From: Candidatus Omnitrophota bacterium
GTDB taxonomy: Bacteria > Omnitrophota > Gorgyraeia > Duberdicusellales > Duberdicusellaceae
DNA length: 64,000 bases
NCBI GenBank assembly: GCA_016932855.1
Contig: JAFGCB010000025.1
Span: forward strand, 118,987-182,986
Direction: 5' to 3'
Shown: one piece after another, positions 3,825-64,000 of the stretch
How the letters are laid out: each line of letters begins with the position of its first letter
Numbering within the stretch: position 1 is the first letter of the stretch
Notes under the pieces: generated by a model
Database searches by the model: none
What the model saw: only the letters and a program-made list of their open reading frames with translations
What the model was told of the DNA's origin: nothing
Made by a program: the position numbers and the translations under genes

Positions 3825-3942
3825 AATTAGAGTCCTAATTCTAAGTTCGAAATTCTAAACAATCTTGGATTTTTTATTTCAAAAAATAAATTTTCAAAAA
3901 GTTTTTCAGTGTTTAGAGTTTAGGATTTAGATTTTTTTTTGT

Positions 3943-5202
3943 ATGGGTAAGACAATAGTCGAAAAAATCTTTTCCTCTCATTCCAACAAGCCGTTAACTG
4001 CTGGCCAAGTAGGTATTTGCAATGTCGATTTTTGTTTTTCGCAAGACGGAACGACTTCTTTAGTCATCGACAGTCTTAATAAATTTAAAAAAACCCGTTT
4101 AAAGAATCTTAAAAGTTTCGCTATGTTTATCGATCATAGCGCCCCCTCTCCTAATTTAGGAGTTTCTGCCGTGCATCAATCGATGCGCAAATTCTCGTTA
4201 AAGCATAAAAACCTGCTTTATGATGTTGGGTGCGGCATTTCTCATCAGCTGATGCTGGAAGAGGGTTTTGTGCTGCCTGGCCGGCTTATCTTAGGCGCTG
4301 ATTCGCATACGGCCACGGGAGGGATTTTAGGCGCCTGTTGCGTTGCCGTGGGTTCCACTGATTTAGCCGTGGGGCTTGTCTATAAGAAAAATTGGTTTAA
4401 AGTTCCGGAGACGATTAAGATAATTATTAAAGGAAAAATTCCCCGAGGTGTCTTCAGTAAGGATATTGCTTTGGAGATAGTCCGAAAGTTCACAGCCAAA
4501 GGCGCCACATATAAAGCGCTTGAATATGAAGGGGAGGTGATAAAGGCCCTTTCTCTGGATGCCCGAGCGACCCTTACGAATATGAGTATTGAGTTTGGGG
4601 CAAAAACCGCGATAATCGCCCCTGACAAGAAAGTCTTCGCCTTTCTTAATAAAATTACGAAAAAAAAGATAAATCCTGTTTATTCCGACGAAGACGCCTG
4701 TTATGAACAGATATGCGAGATTGATGTGACTAAGCTTTCTCCGATGGTCGCTAAGCCTCATTCAGTCGATAGCGGGGTTGCGGTTTCGGAAATAGAAGGC
4801 TTGAAGGTCGATCAGGGATTTATCGGGACTTGCACTAACGGCCGTCTGGAGGATCTCGAGATCGCTGCAAAAATCCTTAATAAACGAAAAGTTCATAAAG
4901 AGACAAAGCTTTTTATCGCGCCGGCTTCGAAGAAAATTTTAGAGTCGGCTTATAAAAAAGGTATTCTGAAAGTTTTTATTGATTCGGGTGCGATAGTTTT
5001 ACCTGTAGGCTGCGGTCCCTGCGTAGGAACCCATCAGGGCATTCCGGCTGACGCGGAAGTTACGATTTCTACCGCCAACAGGAACTTTAAGGGCCGGATG
5101 GGTAATCCCAATGCTTTTATTTATTTGGCATCGCCGGCGACGGTTGCCGCTTCATGTATCAGGTCAAAAATTACAGACCCACGAAATTTTATCAAAAATT
5201 AG
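3943..5202 (+). CDS. leuC: 3-isopropylmalate/homoaconitate dehydratase large subunit (aconitase family, archaeal-type short form)
   Basis: 419 aa; aconitase-family catalytic domain (GADSHT..GG, IGTCTNGR, PCVGTHQG Fe-S ligand region); length fits the short archaeal-type LeuC/HACN; a matching small subunit lies downstream. Confidence 0.8.
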   Translation: MGKTIVEKIFSSHSNKPLTAGQVGICNVDFCFSQDGTTSLVIDSLNKFKKTRLKNLKSFAMFIDHSAPSPNLGVSAVHQSMRKFSLKHKNLLYDVGCGISHQLMLEEGFVLPGRLILGADSHTATGGILGACCVAVGSTDLAVGLVYKKNWFKVPETIKIIIKGKIPRGVFSKDIALEIVRKFTAKGATYKALEYEGEVIKALSLDARATLTNMSIEFGAKTAIIAPDKKVFAFLNKITKKKINPVYSDEDACYEQICEIDVTKLSPMVAKPHSVDSGVAVSEIEGLKVDQGFIGTCTNGRLEDLEIAAKILNKRKVHKETKLFIAPASKKILESAYKKGILKVFIDSGAIVLPVGCGPCVGTHQGIPADAEVTISTANRNFKGRMGNPNAFIYLASPATVAASCIRSKITDPRNFIKN

Positions 5203-33999: not shown

Positions 34000-35298
34000 T
34001 TAAGGCAGGCTTATGCTGCGGGTAAAGGCTTTGACTACTTCCGGGTCAAAGTGCGAGCCGGATTCCCGGCTGATTATTTTTAAGGCTTTTTTAAATTCAT
34101 AGGCTTTTCGATAAGGACGGTCGGAAACCAAAGCTTGAAAGCTATCGGCTAAGGCCACAACTTTAGCTTCAATAGGGATTTGATTATTTTTAAGTCCGTA
34201 AGGATAGCCATGGCCGTCGATTCTTTCGTGGTGGTAGAGGATAGACGGTATTATCTTAATAAGGGGGTGCAAGGGCCGCAATATTTCTGCGCCGATAACC
34301 GGATGTTTCTTTATTTTTTTAAACTCTTCTGCGGTAAGCTCGCCCGGTTTTTGCAAAATTGATTCCGGAATGCCTACTTTGCCCAGATCATGCAGCATCG
34401 CCGCATATCTGATTATTTCTAATTGTTGTTCTTCAAGATTAAGTTTGCGCCCGATGACCAAAGCTATTGTTACTGTTCTTTCGGTGTGTTCTGCCGTATA
34501 GAAATCCTTGGCTTTGATTGCGGTTGCAAAGGCGATGATTGTTTCGAGGGTTGTACGGTCAAGCATCGTAGTTAGCTGCAGGATTTTATTTTTTAGTTCA
34601 GTAACTTCGTGTTTGCCATTTGCATTGTCCTCGCTGGCCGCGGTGTTTTCCTTTAATTTTCGCAACGTGATTACTTTATTATTTTTCGCCTTTGAGCAGT
34701 TAAGGCATTGATTTAAGATCGAAAGCAGTATTTCTTCATTGGTTCCGTCTTCAGGATAAGTCACAAGCCCTATGCTTATTTGGAGACTTATCTTTTCTTT
34801 GCCGAAATATCTGAATTTAAGCTTTTCTTGAATCCGGCCGGCAAGCCTTGTCGCCTCTTCCTTGGAAGTATAGCTGCATATTACGATGAATTCATCTTCC
34901 TTTGATCTGGCTAGAATATCTCCGGTACGCAATTCGTTTTTTAAGAAACAAGCAAATTCGCGCAAGATTACATCTCCGCGCGATACGCCATAGATTTTAT
35001 TGATATTTTTAAATAGTTCTATGTCAATTTTTAGCAAGGATACCGAAAAATTATGCCTTTCGGCCTGAGTCAGGCTTTCCTTAAGGCGAAAGGCTAAATA
35101 TTTGGAGTTGTATAAGTCGGTTATAGTATCGATGAACGAAGACCGGGCCAGACGTTTGTTTAATTGCGCGATTTGGGCATTTTTTGAATTAAGCCTAAGT
35201 TTTAAATAAAATGCCCAGAATAAAACAGGAAATAGCGCTAGCCCTGTAAAGGGCAAGGGTTTTGAAAAAGTCTTTAGAAACTGGAGAAAATAGTCCAT
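34000..35298 (-). CDS. membrane-anchored degenerate-GGDEF / HD-GYP domain protein (putative c-di-GMP phosphodiesterase)
   Basis: 432 aa; N-terminal TM, GGDEF-like fold with the motif degenerated to SKEDEF, C-terminal HD-GYP (HDLGK ... HHERIDGHGYPYGL). Confidence 0.8.
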   Translation of the reverse strand: MDYFLQFLKTFSKPLPFTGLALFPVLFWAFYLKLRLNSKNAQIAQLNKRLARSSFIDTITDLYNSKYLAFRLKESLTQAERHNFSVSLLKIDIELFKNINKIYGVSRGDVILREFACFLKNELRTGDILARSKEDEFIVICSYTSKEEATRLAGRIQEKLKFRYFGKEKISLQISIGLVTYPEDGTNEEILLSILNQCLNCSKAKNNKVITLRKLKENTAASEDNANGKHEVTELKNKILQLTTMLDRTTLETIIAFATAIKAKDFYTAEHTERTVTIALVIGRKLNLEEQQLEIIRYAAMLHDLGKVGIPESILQKPGELTAEEFKKIKKHPVIGAEILRPLHPLIKIIPSILYHHERIDGHGYPYGLKNNQIPIEAKVVALADSFQALVSDRPYRKAYEFKKALKIISRESGSHFDPEVVKAFTRSISLP

Positions 35299-40986: not shown

Positions 40987-41454
40987 ATGAGTAATTTTAC
41001 TGTTTTTATCCGAATTGTGCTGGCGGTTATTTTCGGCGGACTTATCGGTCTTGAGCGCGAACATAAAGGAAGGGCAGCCGGGCTTAGAACCCATGTTCTG
41101 GTATGCATGGGTTCATGTCTTATAATGCTGGTGTCGTTATCGGTCTTCGAGGCCTATAAAAGCCAGACTCCGCTTGATCCGGGAAGAATAGCCGCCGGCG
41201 TTGTTACCGGCATAGGTTTTTTAGGCGCCGGCACGATTATACGAAGCGTTCAGCATGTAAGCGGTCTTACTACCGCCGCCTCAATCTGGGTAAGTGCCGG
41301 CATTGGCATCGGCGTAGGTTGCGGTCTTTATTTCGCATCTTTTTTGGTTACGGTTTTTGCCCTGGTAACTTTGGTTTTATTTAAACGAATTGAAGGTGCT
41401 TTGGAAATAAACGATTCTGCGCAAAATAATCAGGCAAACCCGGACGGCGGCTAA
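40987..41454 (+). CDS. MgtC/SapB family membrane protein
   Basis: 155 aa; MgtC N-terminal family (GLERE..G..AGLRTH.LV..GS), 4-5 TM helices. Confidence 0.75.
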   Translation: MSNFTVFIRIVLAVIFGGLIGLEREHKGRAAGLRTHVLVCMGSCLIMLVSLSVFEAYKSQTPLDPGRIAAGVVTGIGFLGAGTIIRSVQHVSGLTTAASIWVSAGIGIGVGCGLYFASFLVTVFALVTLVLFKRIEGALEINDSAQNNQANPDGG

Positions 41455-41532
41455 TCAGCGCGGTCAGCGATAAAGAAAACCAGTGCTATCTTTATATAGA
41501 TACGCATAACCAGTGATAATAGGGGGTGGAAC

Positions 41533-42024
41533 ATGCTAAAGAAGAAGGAAGAGGAGAAAGTGCTGGATGTAAACGCCAGTATGCAGGGAAGTCTTGTATT
41601 TTCCGACCCGGTAAATTTACGCATCAACGGAAAGTTCGACGGGGACCTTAAGACAAAAGGCATACTGCAGGTCGGCCAATACGCAGAGGTTCGGGCAGAC
41701 ATACACGGAGAAGTAATCATAATTTCCGGGAGAGTAAGAGGCACAATTCTTGCTGATAAAAAAATATGTTTGCTTTCCACCGCAGTGGTGCAGGCTGACA
41801 TATCGGCCCCGGCTTTAGAGGTAAAAGAGGGGGCAATTTTCGAAGGCCGCTCCAGCATGATCGCCGATACAATGGAACTTAAAGACATTTCTCGTTATCT
41901 GGATATCGAAGAAAACAAGATTCTCGAATGGGCTTCAACCGGCAAGATTCCGGCAATCCAAGACGGCAGCAAGTGGATATTTGAGCGAAAAAGGATTGAA
42001 AGCTGGGTAAAAGACACGAAATAG
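41533..42024 (+). CDS. bactofilin-domain protein with C-terminal HTH_17 (excisionase/MerR-like) helix-turn-helix
   Basis: 163 aa; bactofilin beta-helix repeats (INGKFDGDL...G.L.VG..A.V.ADI.GEV.I.G.V.G.I.A...I.L..TA.V.ADI.A..LEV.EGAIFEG...M), then ...LDIEENKILEWASTGKIPAIQDGSKWIFERKRIESW matching the HTH_17 pattern. Confidence 0.7.
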   Translation: MLKKKEEEKVLDVNASMQGSLVFSDPVNLRINGKFDGDLKTKGILQVGQYAEVRADIHGEVIIISGRVRGTILADKKICLLSTAVVQADISAPALEVKEGAIFEGRSSMIADTMELKDISRYLDIEENKILEWASTGKIPAIQDGSKWIFERKRIESWVKDTK

Positions 42025-42031
42025 ATTAGCG

Positions 42032-42071
42032 GATTAACTGATTAACTAATTAAGGGATTCACTGATTAAAA
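42032..42071. repeat. five tandem imperfect octamers (GATTAACT-like) in the promoter region of the HTH-membrane gene
   Basis: gattaact gattaact aattaagg gattcact gattaaaa read directly; about 20 nt upstream of the 42093 start codon. Confidence 0.7.
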
Positions 42072-42092
42072 AGCAAGGGGTGTAATACGGTT

Positions 42093-42392
42093 ATGGCAGA
42101 GAAATTAATTACCATAAGGGAAGCTTCGGAAATACTGGGAATACTGGAAAAAGACGTTATCGACTTAGCGAAGAAAAAACGGATACCTTCATATCTTATA
42201 GGCGGAGAATTTTTGCGGTTTCCCCGTGAAGATATCCATCAACTCAAAGAAAAGATACAAAAAGAATTCAACGTTTTGACTACCACTGTATCTTTTGGCG
42301 AAAAGGTCTATAATCTTTTCCATTTTAATGATTTCTACATAATATCCTTCCTGGCTATCGCAATTCTTTTGGGCGTGATTCTTTTTACATAA
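42093..42392 (+). CDS. HTH_17-family helix-turn-helix protein with C-terminal transmembrane anchor
   Basis: 99 aa; ITIREASEILGI.EKDVIDLAKKKRIPSYLIGGEFLRF.REDI matches excisionase-type HTH; C-terminal hydrophobic helix (YIISFLAIAILLGVILF). Confidence 0.6.
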   Translation: MAEKLITIREASEILGILEKDVIDLAKKKRIPSYLIGGEFLRFPREDIHQLKEKIQKEFNVLTTTVSFGEKVYNLFHFNDFYIISFLAIAILLGVILFT

Positions 42393-43070
42393 ATGTTTGA
42401 AAAAAATGAAAGTTTCCTTGAACTAGGGTTTGCTAAACTTGATTGCTCACGACAGCGACGAACCGGCCTTCCGGAGATCGTTTTTGCGCAGACAAAAGAA
42501 ATCTCCCAGCTTAAGGAAATCATTATTTCCTTTAAAAAAAACAAGGTGCCCCTGTTTCTTTCCCGCCTTAGCAAAGAACAATACCTAAGGTTAAAAAAAC
42601 ATTTTAAAGATTTAAAATATTTTTCTGCCGCCCGGATAGGGTTTTTGGGAAAACCCTATCCTAAAACCGGCAAAACCGTTTCTTTAGTCACGGCCGGCAC
42701 TTCGGATATCCCGGTGGCGGAAGAAGCAGGAGTATTTTTAGAGATTTTGGGAAACAAGGTTGAGCGAATTTTTGATGCCGGAGTTGCCGGCGTCCATCGA
42801 ATACTAAGTTTTAAAAATAAGATCGATCGCTCAAAGATAATAATCGTGGTGGCGGGAATGGAGGGGGCGTTGGCAAGTTTGGTTTCAGGAATCACCAAAA
42901 GGCCGGTTATCGGAGTTCCTACCAGTATTGGCTACGGTGCAAGCTTTAACGGCCTTGCCTCGCTGTTAGGCATGCTTAACAGCTGCTCTTTAGGGGTTTG
43001 CGTGGTTAATATTGACAACGGACTGGGAGCCGGTTATTTAGCGCACACGATTATAAACAGCGATATTTGA
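42393..43070 (+). CDS. larB: nickel-pincer cofactor biosynthesis protein LarB (PurE-like carboxylase/hydrolase)
   Basis: 225 aa; PurE-like fold with V.LVTAGTSDIPVAEEA...G..V....DAGVAGVHR; N-terminal extension typical of LarB rather than PurE; followed by larC. Confidence 0.7.
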   Translation: MFEKNESFLELGFAKLDCSRQRRTGLPEIVFAQTKEISQLKEIIISFKKNKVPLFLSRLSKEQYLRLKKHFKDLKYFSAARIGFLGKPYPKTGKTVSLVTAGTSDIPVAEEAGVFLEILGNKVERIFDAGVAGVHRILSFKNKIDRSKIIIVVAGMEGALASLVSGITKRPVIGVPTSIGYGASFNGLASLLGMLNSCSLGVCVVNIDNGLGAGYLAHTIINSDI

Positions 43071-43073
43071 TAA

Positions 43074-44213
43074 ATGGCCATGCGTGAAGAAAAGGTTATA
43101 TATTTTGATTTAATCGGCGGGGCCTCCGGCGATATGCTCTTGGCCGGGCTTATCGGCGCGGGTTTCCAGAAAACCTCTTTGGAAAATTTAATGCGGCGGT
43201 TAGGGTTTAAGCAACTCGGTATCCGCCTTAAAAAAATAAAAGTCGGTCACATATCTGCCAACCGGCTTAGTTACCAAGAGAAAAATACTAAAAATTTATC
43301 TTTTAAGGAGATTAGATCCTTGTTCCGAAAAGCTCCGATAAGCCGATGGGTAAGCGAAAAATCCATGCAGACCTATGACGATCTGCTCCGGGCTGAAGAA
43401 GCGGTACACGGCCATAAACACCATACAAGGTTCGAGCATTTAGGAAAGCCCGATGCAATAATCGAAATTGCTGGATTCTGGCTAGCCCTAGAAGAGCTGA
43501 AAATTAATCGCGGTTTTTGTTCCATATTTCCTTTAAGCCAGACCGCCCCAGCTACTATCGAGCTTCTCAAAAACCGCAAGGTTTGTTTTGTTGATTGGGG
43601 TTATGAAACAGTAACCCCTACTGCGGCCGTATTGTTAAAGAATTTTAGTCAAAACGACATGGTTCTTATTCCCAAAACCGCCGGTTACGCAGCAGGATAC
43701 AACAACAGCCCTGAACGAGAGGATATGTTACGAGTGGTTACTTGTCAAAAACCGGATATAAAAGAAAAGATCCTTAAGCTCGAAACGAACTTAGATGACA
43801 TAAATCCCCAGGTTTTTGATTATATTATGGAGCTGCTTTTTAAAGCGGGCGCTCTCGATGTTTACATCACGCCGATTATTATGAAAAAAAGCAGGCCGGC
43901 TTTTGTGTTATCGGTTCTTCTTGATAAAAAGGATTTAGTGAAAATAGAAAAAGTAATTTTTCGCGAAACAACTACTTACGGCCTGCGCTATGCCGAATTT
44001 TCGCGCGATAAGCTCAACTATAAATTTATTGAAAAAAAGACTTCTTTCGGTAAAGTCCTTTTTAGGACCGGGCATTTGGACGGAAGCATTTTTAAGCAAA
44101 GTCCCGAATATAGCCATTGCAAAAAAATAGCCTCTAAGTATAATATTCCTTTAATTGACGTCTATAAACGTTTAAATGCAAGTAATGCAGTTTTAAGGGG
44201 TAGCGGGGATTAA
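43074..44213 (+). CDS. larC: nickel insertion protein LarC (DUF111)
   Basis: 379 aa; IYFD...GASGDMLL..LI..G N-terminal LarC signature. Confidence 0.75.
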   Translation: MAMREEKVIYFDLIGGASGDMLLAGLIGAGFQKTSLENLMRRLGFKQLGIRLKKIKVGHISANRLSYQEKNTKNLSFKEIRSLFRKAPISRWVSEKSMQTYDDLLRAEEAVHGHKHHTRFEHLGKPDAIIEIAGFWLALEELKINRGFCSIFPLSQTAPATIELLKNRKVCFVDWGYETVTPTAAVLLKNFSQNDMVLIPKTAGYAAGYNNSPEREDMLRVVTCQKPDIKEKILKLETNLDDINPQVFDYIMELLFKAGALDVYITPIIMKKSRPAFVLSVLLDKKDLVKIEKVIFRETTTYGLRYAEFSRDKLNYKFIEKKTSFGKVLFRTGHLDGSIFKQSPEYSHCKKIASKYNIPLIDVYKRLNASNAVLRGSGD

Positions 44214-44331
44214 AAGGATAGAAGGGGTGAAAGGTGCCCCTCCCTCTGTAACCCTTGTATCCCTTAAAACCCTTGCAACCTTTAAAGTTGTTTCGCCATC
44301 AAACGCATTACGCGTTACGCATAACGAAATT

Positions 44332-44405
44332 GGCGGGATAGCTCAGGCTGGTAGAGCAAACGGCTCATACCCGTTCTGTCGGTGGTTCAAGTCCACTTCC
44401 CGCCA
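44332..44405 (+). tRNA. tRNA-Met (anticodon CAT; could alternatively be lysidine-modified tRNA-Ile2)
   Basis: GGCGGGA/TCCCGCC acceptor stem, GCTC..GAGC D stem, AACGG/CCGTT anticodon stem with loop CTCATAC, GGTGG-TTCAAGT-CCACT T arm, discriminator A; CCA not encoded. Confidence 0.85.
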
Positions 44406-44417
44406 TTCTGTTTCGCC
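44364..44417 (+). repeat. direct repeat copy 1 (3' half of tRNA-Met plus 12 nt), candidate attL-like site
   Basis: 54 nt; 52/54 identical to 45986-46039. Confidence 0.8.
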
Positions 44418-63896: not shown

Positions 63897-63960
63897 GAAG
63901 ACGCATTAATCAAGGTATGACAAAAACACAAAATTTCCTTATTAGATACCAAAAACTAAC

Positions 63961-64000
63961 CGCTAATCGCTATACGCTAAACGCTATACGCTAAACGCTA
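63961..64000. repeat. heptanucleotide tandem repeat (CGCTANN)x5.7, truncated by the window edge
   Basis: cgctaat cgctata cgctaaa cgctata cgctaaa cgcta read directly. Confidence 0.7.

What the first reader, a model, noticed from the sequence alone, without database searches (positions are those of the whole stretch)
41533..42392. Bactofilin fused to an excisionase-type HTH, paired with a membrane-anchored HTH paralog and a five-copy tandem octamer array
The 163-aa product has a typical bactofilin beta-helix, including the terminal EGAIFEG...M motif. It continues into a ~45-aa helix-turn-helix of the HTH_17 type (ILEWASTGKIPAIQDGSKWIFERKRIESW). The next gene encodes an HTH_17 domain at the N-terminus of a protein with one C-terminal TM helix. 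Five tandem imperfect GATTAACT octamers lie between the two genes at 42032-42071, just upstream of the second start codon. This looks like an operator array for one or both HTH proteins. I do not know of a described cytoskeletal polymer (bactofilin) tethered to a DNA-binding domain next to a membrane-bound paralog. It could be a DNA-anchoring or positioning device, for example tethering a locus to the envelope. larB/larC follow directly and may or may not be co-regulated.
Basis: partly seen in the sequence, partly recalled or inferred. Interest (0 to 1): 0.68.

Follow-up and report, generated by a model that had tools for sequence, protein, structure and literature searches.

The report
Omnitrophota bactofilin–winged-helix fusion and membrane partner
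A cytoskeletal bactofilin fused to a DNA-binding-type winged helix, always followed by a small membrane-anchored winged-helix protein, is a conserved and unstudied gene pair across the uncultured phylum Omnitrophota, but the nearby octamer repeat is a private accident of this genome and both winged helices lack the residues that normally read DNA.

Summary
The sequence features are real. ORF 41533-42024 is a bactofilin beta-helix joined by six residues to a MerR/Xis-type winged helix (wHTH). ORF 42093-42392 is a wHTH plus a C-terminal membrane helix. An octamer array lies between them, and larB/larC follow.

The fusion is not a one-off. Relatives occur in 520 species genomes, essentially all Omnitrophota. 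The tail-anchored partner follows directly in every informative locus of the main family, usually 0-30 nt downstream, inside a housekeeping gene string.

The octamer array is absent from all orthologous loci, including the 76-79% identical ones.

In both wHTH families the position of the base-reading arginine of BldC/RacA is acidic (79/80 and 72/80). The recognition helix carries about -2.5 to -3 net charge, against +2/+3 in DNA-binding relatives. The wings stay basic.

My best reading (about 0.4) is a membrane-bound bactofilin scaffold that pairs with its tail-anchored partner through repurposed winged helices, as RodZ-MreB and BacR-bactofilin do. A non-specific DNA-membrane tether is the main rival (about 0.3).

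This is a new variant of a known kind, of moderate interest.

The parts
41533..42024 (+). bacHTH gene: 163-aa bactofilin-winged-helix fusion
   Evidence: ORF with ATG start and GGGGGTGG ribosome-binding site upstream. Pfam Bactofilin plus HTH_17, both above gathering score. 100% identical to a protein of a Candidatus Omnitrophica MAG (P0001).
41533..41559 (+). N-terminal peptide MLKKKEEEK, candidate membrane-targeting sequence
   Evidence: The commonest family N-terminus is MAFKKK. It resembles the global bactofilin membrane-targeting consensus MFSKKKK (PMC12448750). pLDDT is below 50 for residues 1-6. This assignment is an inference.
41560..41859 (+). Bactofilin beta-helix core (residues 10-109)
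   Evidence: AF2 gives all-beta structure with pLDDT 89-98. Foldseek hits BacA 2n3d (TM-target 0.81) and Thermus bactofilin 6rib. A profile hits 2n3d and 6ria at E 8.5e-12 and 5.3e-11. F103 aligns with the polymerisation-critical F130 of BacA and F105 of TtBac. That column is F51/L26/M3 in 80 sequences.
41878..42021 (+). C-terminal winged helix (residues 116-163), MerR/Xis/BldC type, with an acidic recognition helix
   Evidence: AF2 secondary structure H-H-E-E-H. Foldseek hits BldC 6amk/6ama (rmsd 1.4-1.7 A), RdfS, Pukovnik Xis, RacA and CbpM. E132 sits at the BldC Arg30 position and is E/D in 79/80 family members.
42024..42069 (.). Tandem octamer array (GATTAACT x 5.8), private to this genome
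   Evidence: TRF score 50. Beyond chance by simulation. Absent from all orthologous spacers. No promoter-like or terminator-like site was called inside it.
42075..42082 (+). Shine-Dalgarno-like AAGGGGTG for the second gene
   Evidence: Read directly from the sequence, 10 nt before the ATG at 42093. Orthologous loci show GGAGG-type sites before these genes.
42093..42392 (+). hthTM gene: 99-aa tail-anchored winged-helix protein
   Evidence: ORF. Pfam HTH_17 34.7 bits and TIGR01764 32 bits. Present directly downstream of bacHTH in 79/79 informative GTDB loci and in L081, L084, L085, L088 and L090.
42105..42266 (+). N-terminal winged helix of HthTM (residues 5-58)
   Evidence: AF2 gives H8-15, H19-27, E34-36, E40-44, H45-58. 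Foldseek hits BldC at rmsd 1.0-1.4 A and 22-26% identity, plus RacA and pSK1 Par. D24 at the BldC Arg30 position is D/E in 72/80. R42 at the BldC Arg48 position is invariant.
42300..42341 (+). Juxtamembrane motif E-[KR]-x-x-[DN]-[FL]-F-[YH]-F-N-D-F-Y-I (residues 70-83), the most conserved part of HthTM
   Evidence: Column counts are F75 78/80, Y77 78/80, F78 76/80, N79 76/80, D80 79/80, F81 80/80, Y82 80/80. AF2 predicts a helix at 68-78.
42333..42386 (+). C-terminal transmembrane helix (residues 81-98)
   Evidence: The 18-residue hydropathy is 2.86 here and averages 2.67 across the family, with 0-3 residues after it in most members. AF2 predicts a helix at 80-98.
41491..41520 (+). Weak sigma-70-like promoter match upstream of bacHTH (TTTATA-18-GATAAT)
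   Evidence: Consensus scan, 9/12 matches. This is not evidence of function.
40987..41454 (+). Upstream mgtC/sapB-family membrane protein gene, syntenic with the pair
   Evidence: Pfam MgtC 140.9 bits. Found directly upstream of bacHTH in most of the 80 loci, often overlapping or within 20 nt.
42393..44213 (+). Downstream larB (42393-43070) and larC (43074-44213), co-directional with zero spacer after hthTM
   Evidence: NCBIfam LarB 258 bits. Pfam Ni_insertion 282 bits. LarB follows hthTM in about 50 of 80 loci.

Best explanation
The two genes encode one conserved, co-expressed, membrane-attached cytoskeletal module of Omnitrophota.

BacHTH is a bactofilin that probably polymerises: the interface Phe is kept. 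It probably sits on the inner face of the cytoplasmic membrane through a short M-(A)-F/L-K-K-K N-terminal peptide. Each subunit carries a folded MerR/Xis-type winged helix six residues after the last beta-strand, so the filament displays a regular array of these domains.

HthTM is a tail-anchored protein whose cytoplasmic winged helix belongs to the same domain family. I propose that the winged helices have been repurposed from DNA reading to protein-protein contact. The acidic 'recognition-helix' face of one would pair with the conserved basic wing of the other. This would couple the filament to an integral membrane partner whose conserved aromatic juxtamembrane motif is the real membrane-side effector.

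This works like RodZ, a membrane protein whose HTH holds MreB. It also resembles bactofilin clients that are bitopic membrane proteins, and it echoes the BacR(HTH)-bactofilin interaction of Bacillus.

Shown: domain identities, folds, phylum-wide co-occurrence and tight gene coupling, loss of base-reading residues, and charge pattern. Inferred: polymerisation, membrane binding, and the wHTH-wHTH contact. The octamer array plays no conserved part.
For: Domains and folds are established.

Co-occurrence: hthTM follows bacHTH in 79/79 informative GTDB loci, with a median spacer of about 16 nt and many spacers of 0-10 nt. The same holds in L081, L084, L085, L088 and L090, including divergent family members.

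The two wHTH families are homologous (hhalign 96%). They are the only such domains in the 64-kb window.

Loss of DNA-reading residues: the BldC Arg30 / RacA Arg19 position is E/D in 79/80 BacHTH and D/E in 72/80 HthTM. The preceding position, which is Arg in Pukovnik Xis, is hydrophobic (contact residues from PMC5859096 and PMC4914108). In the nearest non-family HTH_17 repeats (P0344, P0319) that position is R/K in 7 of 10 repeats and never acidic.

Charge: the turn plus recognition helix has net charge -2.9 and -2.4, against +2/+3 in Xis/BldC. The whole BacHTH wHTH averages -1.6. The wings remain +2 to +2.8.

The net charges of the two wHTHs are anticorrelated (Spearman -0.49). After independent contrasts r = -0.23, one-sided p about 0.02.

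Precedents for this fold or motif in protein binding: CbpM-CbpA (3ucs, among the Foldseek hits), BacR binding bactofilins BacE/BacF (PMC13649987), and RodZ-MreB (PMC6946637 and PMC6052060, listed; the mechanism is from my own knowledge). BldC itself makes head-to-tail wHTH-wHTH contacts between the HTH face and the wing.

A sister bactofilin with the same core carries PilZ instead of the wHTH and has no HthTM neighbour. This is consistent with partner and wHTH going together.
Against: There is no direct evidence of a wHTH-wHTH contact. Column covariation between the two proteins only tracked clade splits, and a complex prediction could not be run.

Every characterised close structural relative except CbpM binds DNA.

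Basic wing residues are kept: HthTM R42 is invariant and K20 is 76/80 K/R; BacHTH has K143, K/R149, R152 and K153. The wing could therefore still hold DNA backbone.

A divergent Bactofilin+HTH_17 lineage (P0317, L087) keeps the acidic residue but has no HthTM neighbour. The acidic face therefore need not exist for HthTM.

The bactofilin appears to have its own membrane-targeting peptide, so an anchor is not strictly needed. HthTM has no other domain that would explain what is being recruited.

The charge anticorrelation is weak after phylogenetic correction. It would also fit conservation of a joint DNA affinity.
Confidence: 0.4

Rival explanations
1. Non-specific DNA-membrane tether. The filament on the membrane presents many weak winged helices, and the tail-anchored HthTM adds more. 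Avidity holds nucleoid DNA at the envelope through wing and backbone contacts. This would serve chromosome positioning, segregation or nucleoid occlusion in very small cells. It would be a built-in version of RacA-DivIVA, Noc or BacNOP-PadC-ParB.
For: The fold relatives BldC, RacA, pSK1 Par, Xis and RdfS all bind DNA. The basic wing is conserved, including the BldC Arg48 equivalent (R42 80/80 in HthTM; K/R149 59/80 in BacHTH). The BldC Lys26 equivalent is kept in HthTM (76/80). The isolated RacA wHTH binds DNA only at 9 uM, but 58 nM when oligomerised (PMC4914108). A polymer could therefore compensate for weak domains. Bactofilins already organise ParB-parS in Myxococcus (PMC5703909). The negative charge correlation could reflect conservation of a joint affinity.
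Against: The BacHTH wHTH is net negative (mean -1.6, down to -6). Both recognition helices are acidic in essentially all members, which is unusual for a non-specific DNA binder. Neither Arg position used for major-groove contact is basic. No conserved DNA repeat accompanies the locus.
Confidence: 0.3
2. BacR-like partner switch or regulator. The HthTM winged helix binds DNA or a transcription component, and the acidic winged helix on the bactofilin competes for that surface. Filament state would then control a membrane-proximal regulatory activity, including expression of this operon.
For: In B. subtilis the HTH protein BacR is encoded next to bactofilin genes. It binds BacE/BacF, and its DNA binding is then strongly reduced (PMC13649987). 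HthTM is mildly basic (+1.4) and BacHTH wHTH is acidic (-1.6), with anticorrelated charges. A weak promoter-like site lies upstream of bacHTH.
Against: HthTM is permanently membrane-anchored and lacks base-reading residues. There is no DUF4004 match. No conserved operator-like sequence lies upstream in orthologues. In most genomes bacHTH overlaps or abuts mgtC, so there is no room for a dedicated promoter.
Confidence: 0.12
3. These are sequence-specific DNA-binding proteins whose operator is the five-copy GATTAACT array between the genes, anchoring that locus to the envelope.
For: The array is a genuine, non-random repeat placed just upstream of the second start codon. BldC-type winged helices do bind AT-rich direct repeats cooperatively (PMC5859096).
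Against: The array is absent from all 79 GTDB loci and from the 76-79% identical relatives, whose spacers are 15-45 nt of unrelated sequence. Many genomes have 0-10 nt between the genes. The motif is not enriched elsewhere in the window (15 matches against 11.4 expected). The period of 8 bp differs from the 9-bp BldC repeat and puts successive sites on different helix faces. Base-reading residues are missing.
Confidence: 0.04
4. The two genes are merely neighbours in a streamlined housekeeping operon and the winged helices act independently. For example, the BacHTH wHTH might self-associate to bundle filaments, and HthTM might be an unrelated small membrane protein.
For: The cluster secDF-mfd-surA-pdxA-ksgA-gatAB-ctp-tsaD-mgtC-bacHTH-hthTM-larBC mixes unrelated functions. 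The synteny extends well beyond the pair. P0317 shows a fusion without the partner.
Against: Both proteins carry the same uncommon domain with the same unusual acidic substitution at the same position. No other ORF in 64 kb has it. Adjacency is kept even where flanking genes vary (LarB is absent in about 30 loci and MgtC in several).
Confidence: 0.1

Closest known systems
Canonical bactofilins (C. crescentus BacA, T. thermophilus TtBac; Pfam PF04519)
   Same: Same beta-helical core by profile and predicted fold. The interface Phe is conserved. The N-terminal M-F/L-K-K-K peptide resembles the described membrane-targeting sequence.
   Different: Canonical bactofilins have short, disordered, proline-rich tails. 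Here the C-terminal tail is replaced by a folded 48-residue winged helix after a 6-residue linker.
BacR (YhbD, DUF4004) with bactofilins BacE/BacF of Bacillus subtilis (PMC13649987)
   Same: An HTH protein is genetically linked to bactofilin genes. It binds bactofilins physically and is held at the membrane by them.
   Different: BacR is a separate, soluble, roughly 210-aa DUF4004 protein that binds DNA in vitro. Here one HTH is fused to the bactofilin and the other is an integral membrane protein. There is no DUF4004 match, and the base-contact residues are acidic.
RacA-DivIVA chromosome anchor of B. subtilis (PMC4914108)
   Same: A MerR-like winged helix of the same fold (Foldseek hits 5i44) is coupled to a membrane-associated polymer-forming scaffold. 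Oligomerisation boosts a weak DNA-binding domain.
   Different: RacA reads GC-rich centromere sites with Arg19 and has an electropositive surface. The equivalent residue here is Glu/Asp. RacA links to DivIVA through a coiled coil, not by fusion.
BldC / Xis / RdfS small winged-helix proteins (PMC5859096; PDB 6ama, 4j2n, 8dgl)
   Same: Closest structural matches for both winged helices (rmsd 1.0-1.7 A). They can form head-to-tail wHTH-wHTH contacts.
   Different: These are free-standing, basic DNA binders of direct repeats or recombination sites. Here the domains are tethered to a polymer or a membrane, lie in a housekeeping context with no recombinase, and have an acidic recognition helix.
RodZ-MreB (cited from knowledge; reviews PMC6946637, PMC6052060)
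   Same: A bitopic membrane protein with an N-terminal cytoplasmic HTH binds a cytoskeletal polymer rather than DNA.
   Different: RodZ has an XRE-type HTH, a periplasmic domain and partners with actin-like MreB. HthTM has a MerR/Xis-type wHTH, no periplasmic domain and sits next to a bactofilin.
BacNOP-PadC-ParB scaffold of Myxococcus xanthus (PMC5703909)
   Same: A bactofilin scaffold is connected to DNA-binding machinery for chromosome organisation.
   Different: The connection there runs through the adaptor PadC to ParB/ParA. There is no DNA-binding-type domain on the bactofilin itself.

Membership tests
Bactofilin (PF04519) | Right-handed beta-helical DUF583 core recognised by the family profile | tested here: met
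   Pfam 79.3 bits against cut-off 27.9. Profile hits to BacA 2n3d and TtBac 6ria. AF2 model matches 2n3d and 6rib.
Bactofilin (PF04519) | Conserved hydrophobic residue at the C-terminal polymerisation interface (BacA F130 / TtBac F105) | tested here: met
   F103 aligns with both. The column is F51/L26/M3 of 80.
Bactofilin (PF04519) | N-terminal membrane-targeting peptide (consensus MFSKKKK) | tested here: inconclusive
   The window protein has MLKKKEEE and the family mode is MAFKKK, against the consensus in PMC12448750. This is similarity only. Some members start MRRREEE.
Bactofilin (PF04519) | Nucleotide-independent polymerisation into filaments | not testable with these tools
   Needs purified protein and EM, or in vivo imaging.
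HTH_17 / excisionase-MerR winged helix (PF12728, TIGR01764) | Profile match and alpha-alpha-beta-beta-alpha winged-helix fold | tested here: met
   Pfam 31.7 and 34.7 bits against cut-off 27. TIGR01764 gives 32 bits (above its 28.8 cut-off) for HthTM but only 25 bits (below cut-off) for BacHTH. AF2 topology. Foldseek hits to BldC, Xis, RdfS and RacA.
HTH_17 / excisionase-MerR winged helix (PF12728, TIGR01764) | Basic recognition helix with a major-groove Arg/Lys (BldC Lys26/Arg30, RacA Arg19, Xis Arg) | tested here: not met
   The Arg30 position is E/D in 79/80 (BacHTH) and D/E in 72/80 (HthTM). Helix net charge is -2.9 and -2.4 against +2/+3. Only HthTM keeps the Lys26 equivalent.
HTH_17 / excisionase-MerR winged helix (PF12728, TIGR01764) | DNA binding | not testable with these tools
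   Needs EMSA or anisotropy.
Excisionase (recombination directionality factor) | Encoded in a mobile element next to an integrase/recombinase | tested here: not met
   Neighbours are SecDF, Mfd, SurA, PdxA, KsgA, GatA/B, Ctp, TsaD, MgtC, LarB and LarC. The same synteny holds in 80 genomes.
BacR / DUF4004 bactofilin regulators | DUF4004 (PF13171) domain of about 210 aa | tested here: not met
   No PF13171 hit at E <= 0.1 for either protein. Lengths are 163 and 99 aa.
BacR / DUF4004 bactofilin regulators | HTH protein gene adjacent to a bactofilin gene | tested here: met
   hthTM lies directly downstream of bacHTH in all informative loci of the main family.
RacA-type chromosome anchor | Winged helix that recognises repeated centromere-like sites | tested here: not met
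   There is no conserved repeat at or near the locus in orthologues. The Arg19-equivalent is acidic. Genome-wide sites could not be searched.
Operator array for an HTH regulator | Conservation of the repeated site in orthologous loci, or recurrence at other targets | tested here: not met
   Absent in 79 loci plus L084 and L085. No enrichment in the window.
RodZ | XRE-type HTH, transmembrane helix, periplasmic C-terminal domain | tested here: not met
   The HTH is HTH_17 type. Only 0-3 residues follow the TM helix. The resemblance is functional only.

The most novel reading that the evidence does not exclude
Omnitrophota, mostly ultra-small uncultured bacteria, use a bactofilin filament with a built-in winged helix, together with a tail-anchored winged-helix partner, as a self-contained cytoskeletal device. 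This device would hold the nucleoid against the membrane by avidity of many weak, non-sequence-specific wing contacts. It would be a one-operon functional equivalent of RacA-DivIVA, Noc or BacNOP-PadC-ParB, and the first cytoskeletal polymer with an intrinsic DNA-binding head.
Probability: 0.3. Interest if true: 0.75.

Novelty: new variant of a known kind. Interest (0 to 1): 0.55.

Why it matters
Bactofilins are widespread scaffolds whose clients are mostly unknown, and their terminal tails are normally disordered. Here a folded nucleic-acid-binding-type domain is welded to the polymer. An obligate membrane partner of the same fold is kept across a whole uncultured phylum. This gives a concrete, testable pair for asking how bactofilins recruit partners.

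It is also a natural 'Rosetta-stone' fusion that parallels the recently reported HTH(BacR)-bactofilin interaction in Bacillus. It may be a second example, after RodZ, of an HTH recycled into a cytoskeleton-membrane adaptor.

If the DNA-tether reading is right instead, it would reveal how very small cells with reduced division and segregation machinery position their chromosome.

On the practical side, the automatic name 'excisionase family DNA binding protein' for these genes is misleading.

Tried and rejected
(1) Octamer as operator. I checked orthologous spacers, recurrence of the motif in the window and promoter or terminator calls. The idea is rejected.

(2) Column covariation (MI with APC) between the two proteins on 80 pairs. 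The top pairs only reflect two or three clade splits and show no enrichment for wHTH-wHTH pairs. This was uninformative.

(3) The metagenome scan for closer relatives found only three loci, of which one was useful.

(4) Single-sequence searches of the two winged helices against PDB sequences gave only noise. Profile searches were needed.

(5) A Foldseek search against AFDB50, meant to find the architecture in other phyla, failed because the library is not installed.

(6) A complex prediction of BacHTH with HthTM was not possible.

(7) I considered that the octamer unit derives from the 'GGATTAAYTC' linker of a hairpin element seen in other genomes. That string is part of the outer stem of the hairpin and the window has no such hairpin. 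I dropped it as a superficial resemblance.

(8) Excisionase or prophage origin is rejected because of the housekeeping context.

(9) An Rfam scan of the hairpin-bearing loci found only tRNAs.
Full report
**What is there**

The window carries two co-directional ORFs at 41533-42024 (163 aa) and 42093-42392 (99 aa).

- The first ORF scores above Pfam's gathering thresholds for Bactofilin (residues 10-107, 79.3 bits) and HTH_17 (residues 116-160, 31.7 bits).
- The second ORF scores for HTH_17 (residues 5-54, 34.7 bits). It ends in an 18-residue hydrophobic stretch of hydropathy 2.86, with one residue after it.

Between the two ORFs, Tandem Repeats Finder reports 5.8 copies of GATTAACT at 42024-42069.

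- The lag-8 self-similarity is 28/38. This is the highest in the window.
- None of 200 Markov simulations reached that value.

larB starts on the base after the second stop codon, and larC follows.

**Structures**

With a 53-sequence alignment, AlphaFold2 gives a confident model of the fusion (mean pLDDT 90.5).

- An all-beta core spans residues 10-109.
- A six-residue linker follows.
- The C-terminal domain has helix-helix-strand-strand-helix topology, at 116-123, 127-136, 142-144, 147-151 and 152-162.

Foldseek against the PDB matches the core to BacA (2n3d) and Thermus bactofilin (6rib). It matches the C-terminal domain to several proteins:

- BldC (rmsd 1.4-1.7 A)
- the RdfS excisionase
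- Pukovnik Xis
- RacA
- CbpM, a MerR-like protein solved in complex with a protein, the CbpA J-domain

The second protein models less confidently (pLDDT 76). The same winged helix occupies residues 8-58. A low-confidence linker follows, then two helices at 68-78 and 80-98. Its best structural matches are BldC (rmsd 1.0-1.4 A, 22-26% identity), RacA and the pSK1 Par centromere-binding domain.

The two winged helices are not close paralogs.

- BLASTP finds no alignment between them.
- Their profiles do align (hhalign probability 96%, E 5e-9, 21% identity).
- They are the only ORFs in the 64-kb window that match either profile.

**Distribution and context**

The fusion protein is identical to one from a Candidatus Omnitrophica MAG (P0001).

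- At least 732 protein clusters (90% identity) match, and the best 120 all carry both Pfam domains.
- Sources name these proteins only 'polymer-forming cytoskeletal protein' or 'excisionase family DNA binding protein'.
- A scan of one genome per species (185,579 species) found 520 genomes encoding a relative.
- The best 80 are labelled Omnitrophota. A few carry what look like loose bin labels, namely 'uncultured Planctomycetia/Planctomycetales', one 'Margulisiibacteriota' and two plain 'bacterium'.
- At 50% identity the family collapses to about 25 full-length clusters, with 41 hits at E <= 1e-30. It is a compact orthologous family.

In the 80 loci the gene order ctp - (one gene) - tsaD - mgtC - bacHTH - hthTM - larB is widely kept.

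- hthTM follows bacHTH in 79 of 79 loci that extend far enough.
- The median spacer is about 16 nt, and many spacers are 0-10 nt.
- The same pairing is seen in L081, L084, L085, L088 and L090. These include divergent members such as one with a 20-residue acidic linker.

With a 30-sequence profile, the HthTM family returns 3125 hits. The top 120 are all 99-112 aa, and every one that carries an organism name is from Omnitrophota/Omnitrophica.

The wider window context is housekeeping: SecDF, Mfd, SurA, PdxA, KsgA, GatA, GatB, a Ctp protease, TsaD and MgtC upstream, and LarB/LarC downstream. This is not a mobile element, so the 'excisionase' label is misleading.

**The octamer array**

None of the 79 orthologous spacers contains the repeat.

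- The two closest relatives I could fetch are 76% and 79% identical. Their spacers are 45 nt and 15 nt of unrelated sequence.
- A two-unit version of the motif is not enriched elsewhere in the window (15 matches against 11.4 expected).
- No promoter-like or terminator-like site was called in the spacer.

The array is a real microsatellite-like repeat, but it is private to this genome.

**Do the winged helices look like DNA readers?**

The BldC-DNA structures show base contacts from Lys26 and Arg30 on the recognition helix. They show phosphate contacts from Thr27, Thr29, Lys33 and Trp31, and minor-groove contacts from wing residues His46, Arg47 and Arg48 (PMC5859096). RacA uses the equivalent arginine, Arg19 (PMC4914108). 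I mapped these positions through the profile alignments onto 80-sequence alignments built from the loci.

| BldC position | BacHTH (80 sequences) | HthTM (80 sequences) |
|---|---|---|
| Arg30 (base contact) | Glu or Asp in 79/80 | Asp or Glu in 72/80 |
| Preceding position (Arg in Pukovnik Xis) | hydrophobic | hydrophobic |
| Lys33 | Asn/Ser | mostly Glu |
| Thr27 | not scored here | Glu/Asp in 69/80 |

The nearest non-family HTH_17 repeats found by the exhaustive search are P0344 and P0319. In them the Arg30-equivalent is Arg or Lys in 7 of 10 repeats and never acidic.

Net charges are as follows.

| Segment | BacHTH | HthTM | Pukovnik Xis / BldC |
|---|---|---|---|
| Turn plus recognition helix | -2.9 | -2.4 | +2 / +3 |
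| Whole winged helix | -1.6 | +1.4 | +5 / +5 (the aligned 51- and 53-residue fragments) |
| Wing | +2.0 | +2.8 | +4 / +4 |

Basic residues are nevertheless kept in the wings. In HthTM, R42 (the Arg48 equivalent) is invariant and K20 (the Lys26 equivalent) is K/R in 76/80. BacHTH keeps K143, K/R149, R152 and K153.

Canonical sequence-specific major-groove reading is therefore unlikely for both domains. Backbone or minor-groove contact by the wings cannot be excluded.

**Other features of the fusion**

- F103 aligns with the polymerisation-critical Phe of BacA (F130) and TtBac (F105). That column is hydrophobic in all 80 sequences.
- The N-terminus is MLKKK here and MAFKKK in most relatives. This resembles the global bactofilin membrane-targeting consensus MFSKKKK (PMC12448750).
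- From these two points I infer, but have not shown, that the protein polymerises on the membrane.

In HthTM the most conserved stretch is not the winged helix. It is an aromatic juxtamembrane motif, D-F-F-Y-F-N-D-F-Y-I, leading into the transmembrane helix.

**Are the two proteins coupled?**

- They share the same uncommon domain with the same unusual acidic substitution at the same position.
- They are adjacent and tightly spaced in every informative locus of the main family.
- The net charges of their winged helices are anticorrelated (Spearman -0.49).
- After independent contrasts on a neighbour-joining tree, the correlation is -0.23 with one-sided permutation p about 0.02. This is weak support.
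- Column-level mutual information only tracked clade splits.

Two informative variants turned up in the exhaustive search.

- P0292 has the same bactofilin sub-family core but a C-terminal PilZ domain instead of the winged helix. It has no HthTM neighbour and sits next to a hybrid histidine kinase and a sigma-54 activator.
- P0317 is a much more divergent Bactofilin+HTH_17 fusion that also has Glu at the Arg30 position. Its neighbour is a membrane protein with mechanosensitive-channel-type TM helices, not HthTM.

The first variant fits partner and winged helix travelling together. The second shows that the acidic face can exist without HthTM.

**Interpretation**

My best-supported reading is a membrane-attached bactofilin scaffold. 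Its built-in winged helix, and that of its tail-anchored partner, would have been repurposed for protein-protein contact. There are precedents for each element:

- RodZ, a membrane-anchored HTH that binds MreB (from my own knowledge; reviews listed).
- CbpM, a MerR fold that binds the CbpA J-domain (3ucs).
- BacR, an HTH protein encoded next to bactofilin genes, which binds bactofilins and is held at the membrane by them, with loss of DNA binding (PMC13649987).
- The head-to-tail wHTH contacts of BldC.
- The recurring theme of bitopic membrane clients encoded next to bactofilins.

I give this reading about 0.4.

The main rival, at about 0.3, is a non-specific DNA-membrane tether working by avidity. 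The isolated RacA domain binds DNA at 9 uM but the oligomer binds at 58 nM. A polymer could therefore rescue weak domains. The basic wings and the DNA-binding habits of all close structural relatives speak for this rival.

**Comparison and novelty**

The protein is a bactofilin by every testable criterion, and its C-terminal domain is an HTH_17/MerR-type winged helix by profile and fold. It fails the feature that matters for DNA reading, and it is not an excisionase by context.

It is not a member of the BacR/DUF4004, RacA or RodZ families. It may work like one of them.

Three full-text searches found no paper describing a bactofilin fused to a winged helix or any bactofilin of Omnitrophota. 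The architecture is visible in databases but unnamed.

I rate it a new variant of a known kind. It is a conserved, testable and so far unstudied module, of moderate interest (0.55). The most novel reading, a cytoskeletal polymer with an intrinsic DNA-holding head, is still open at about 0.3.

Noticed in passing
L084 2935-2990; L085 1270-1335; L071 ~3925-3985; L013 ~4610-4672; L022 ~120-205; L048, L047, L016 (upstream of RBS): A conserved long hairpin sits immediately 5' of the ribosome-binding site of different genes of this cluster in several Omnitrophota genomes. Its layout is TYAATTC-GC, a variable 10-12-bp stem ending ACTTAY, a loop, RTAAGT plus stem, then GC-TCATTRA. It precedes bacHTH, hthTM, mgtC or ctp. 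In six copies, 10 of 19 predicted pairs show compensatory double changes. There is no Rfam match. It is absent from the window. It could be a cis-regulatory or processing RNA hairpin, or a REP-like element.
   Followed up: partly
L086 768-1529 (protein P0292): A bactofilin of the same sub-family core (signature IDVTANMQGT..FSDPVNLRI) carries a C-terminal PilZ domain instead of the winged helix. It lies next to a hybrid histidine kinase and a sigma-54 activator and has no HthTM partner. This suggests modular swapping of C-terminal heads on this bactofilin, here possibly c-di-GMP controlled.
   Followed up: partly
L087 1743-2306 (protein P0317): A divergent Bactofilin+HTH_17 fusion (187 aa, N-terminus MKFFPQKK) also has Glu at the BldC-Arg30 position. 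It has no tail-anchored HTH neighbour. The downstream gene encodes a 261-aa membrane protein with mechanosensitive-channel-type TM helices. In the PilZ locus L086, the upstream 225-aa gene gives a faint, sub-threshold match to the same TM-helix family (17.7 bits against cut-off 22).
   Followed up: partly
proteins P0344 (417 aa), P0371 (479 aa), P0319 (231 aa): These proteins consist of 3-8 tandem HTH_17 winged helices with ordinary basic recognition helices. They are the nearest non-family relatives of the BacHTH winged helix. Their origin and function are unknown.
   Followed up: no
window 63956-64000: A second short tandem array (CTAAACG x 6.4, also read as a 14-mer x 2.9) runs into the end of the window.
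   Followed up: no
window 44331-44406 and 44250-44286: A tRNA-Met (CAT) gene lies in the gap after larC. It is preceded by an 18-nt unit repeated 2.1 times. L084 also has a tRNA downstream of larC.
   Followed up: no
window 34000-35298 (-): The only sizeable minus-strand gene in a roughly 46-kb run of plus-strand genes encodes a GGDEF plus HD(-GYP-like) protein.
   Followed up: no
window 40987-41454 and loci L001-L080: A short MgtC/SapB-family membrane protein gene is almost always directly upstream of bacHTH. It often overlaps it by 1-11 nt or lies within 20 nt. A functional link between MgtC, the bactofilin and HthTM is possible but untested.
   Followed up: partly
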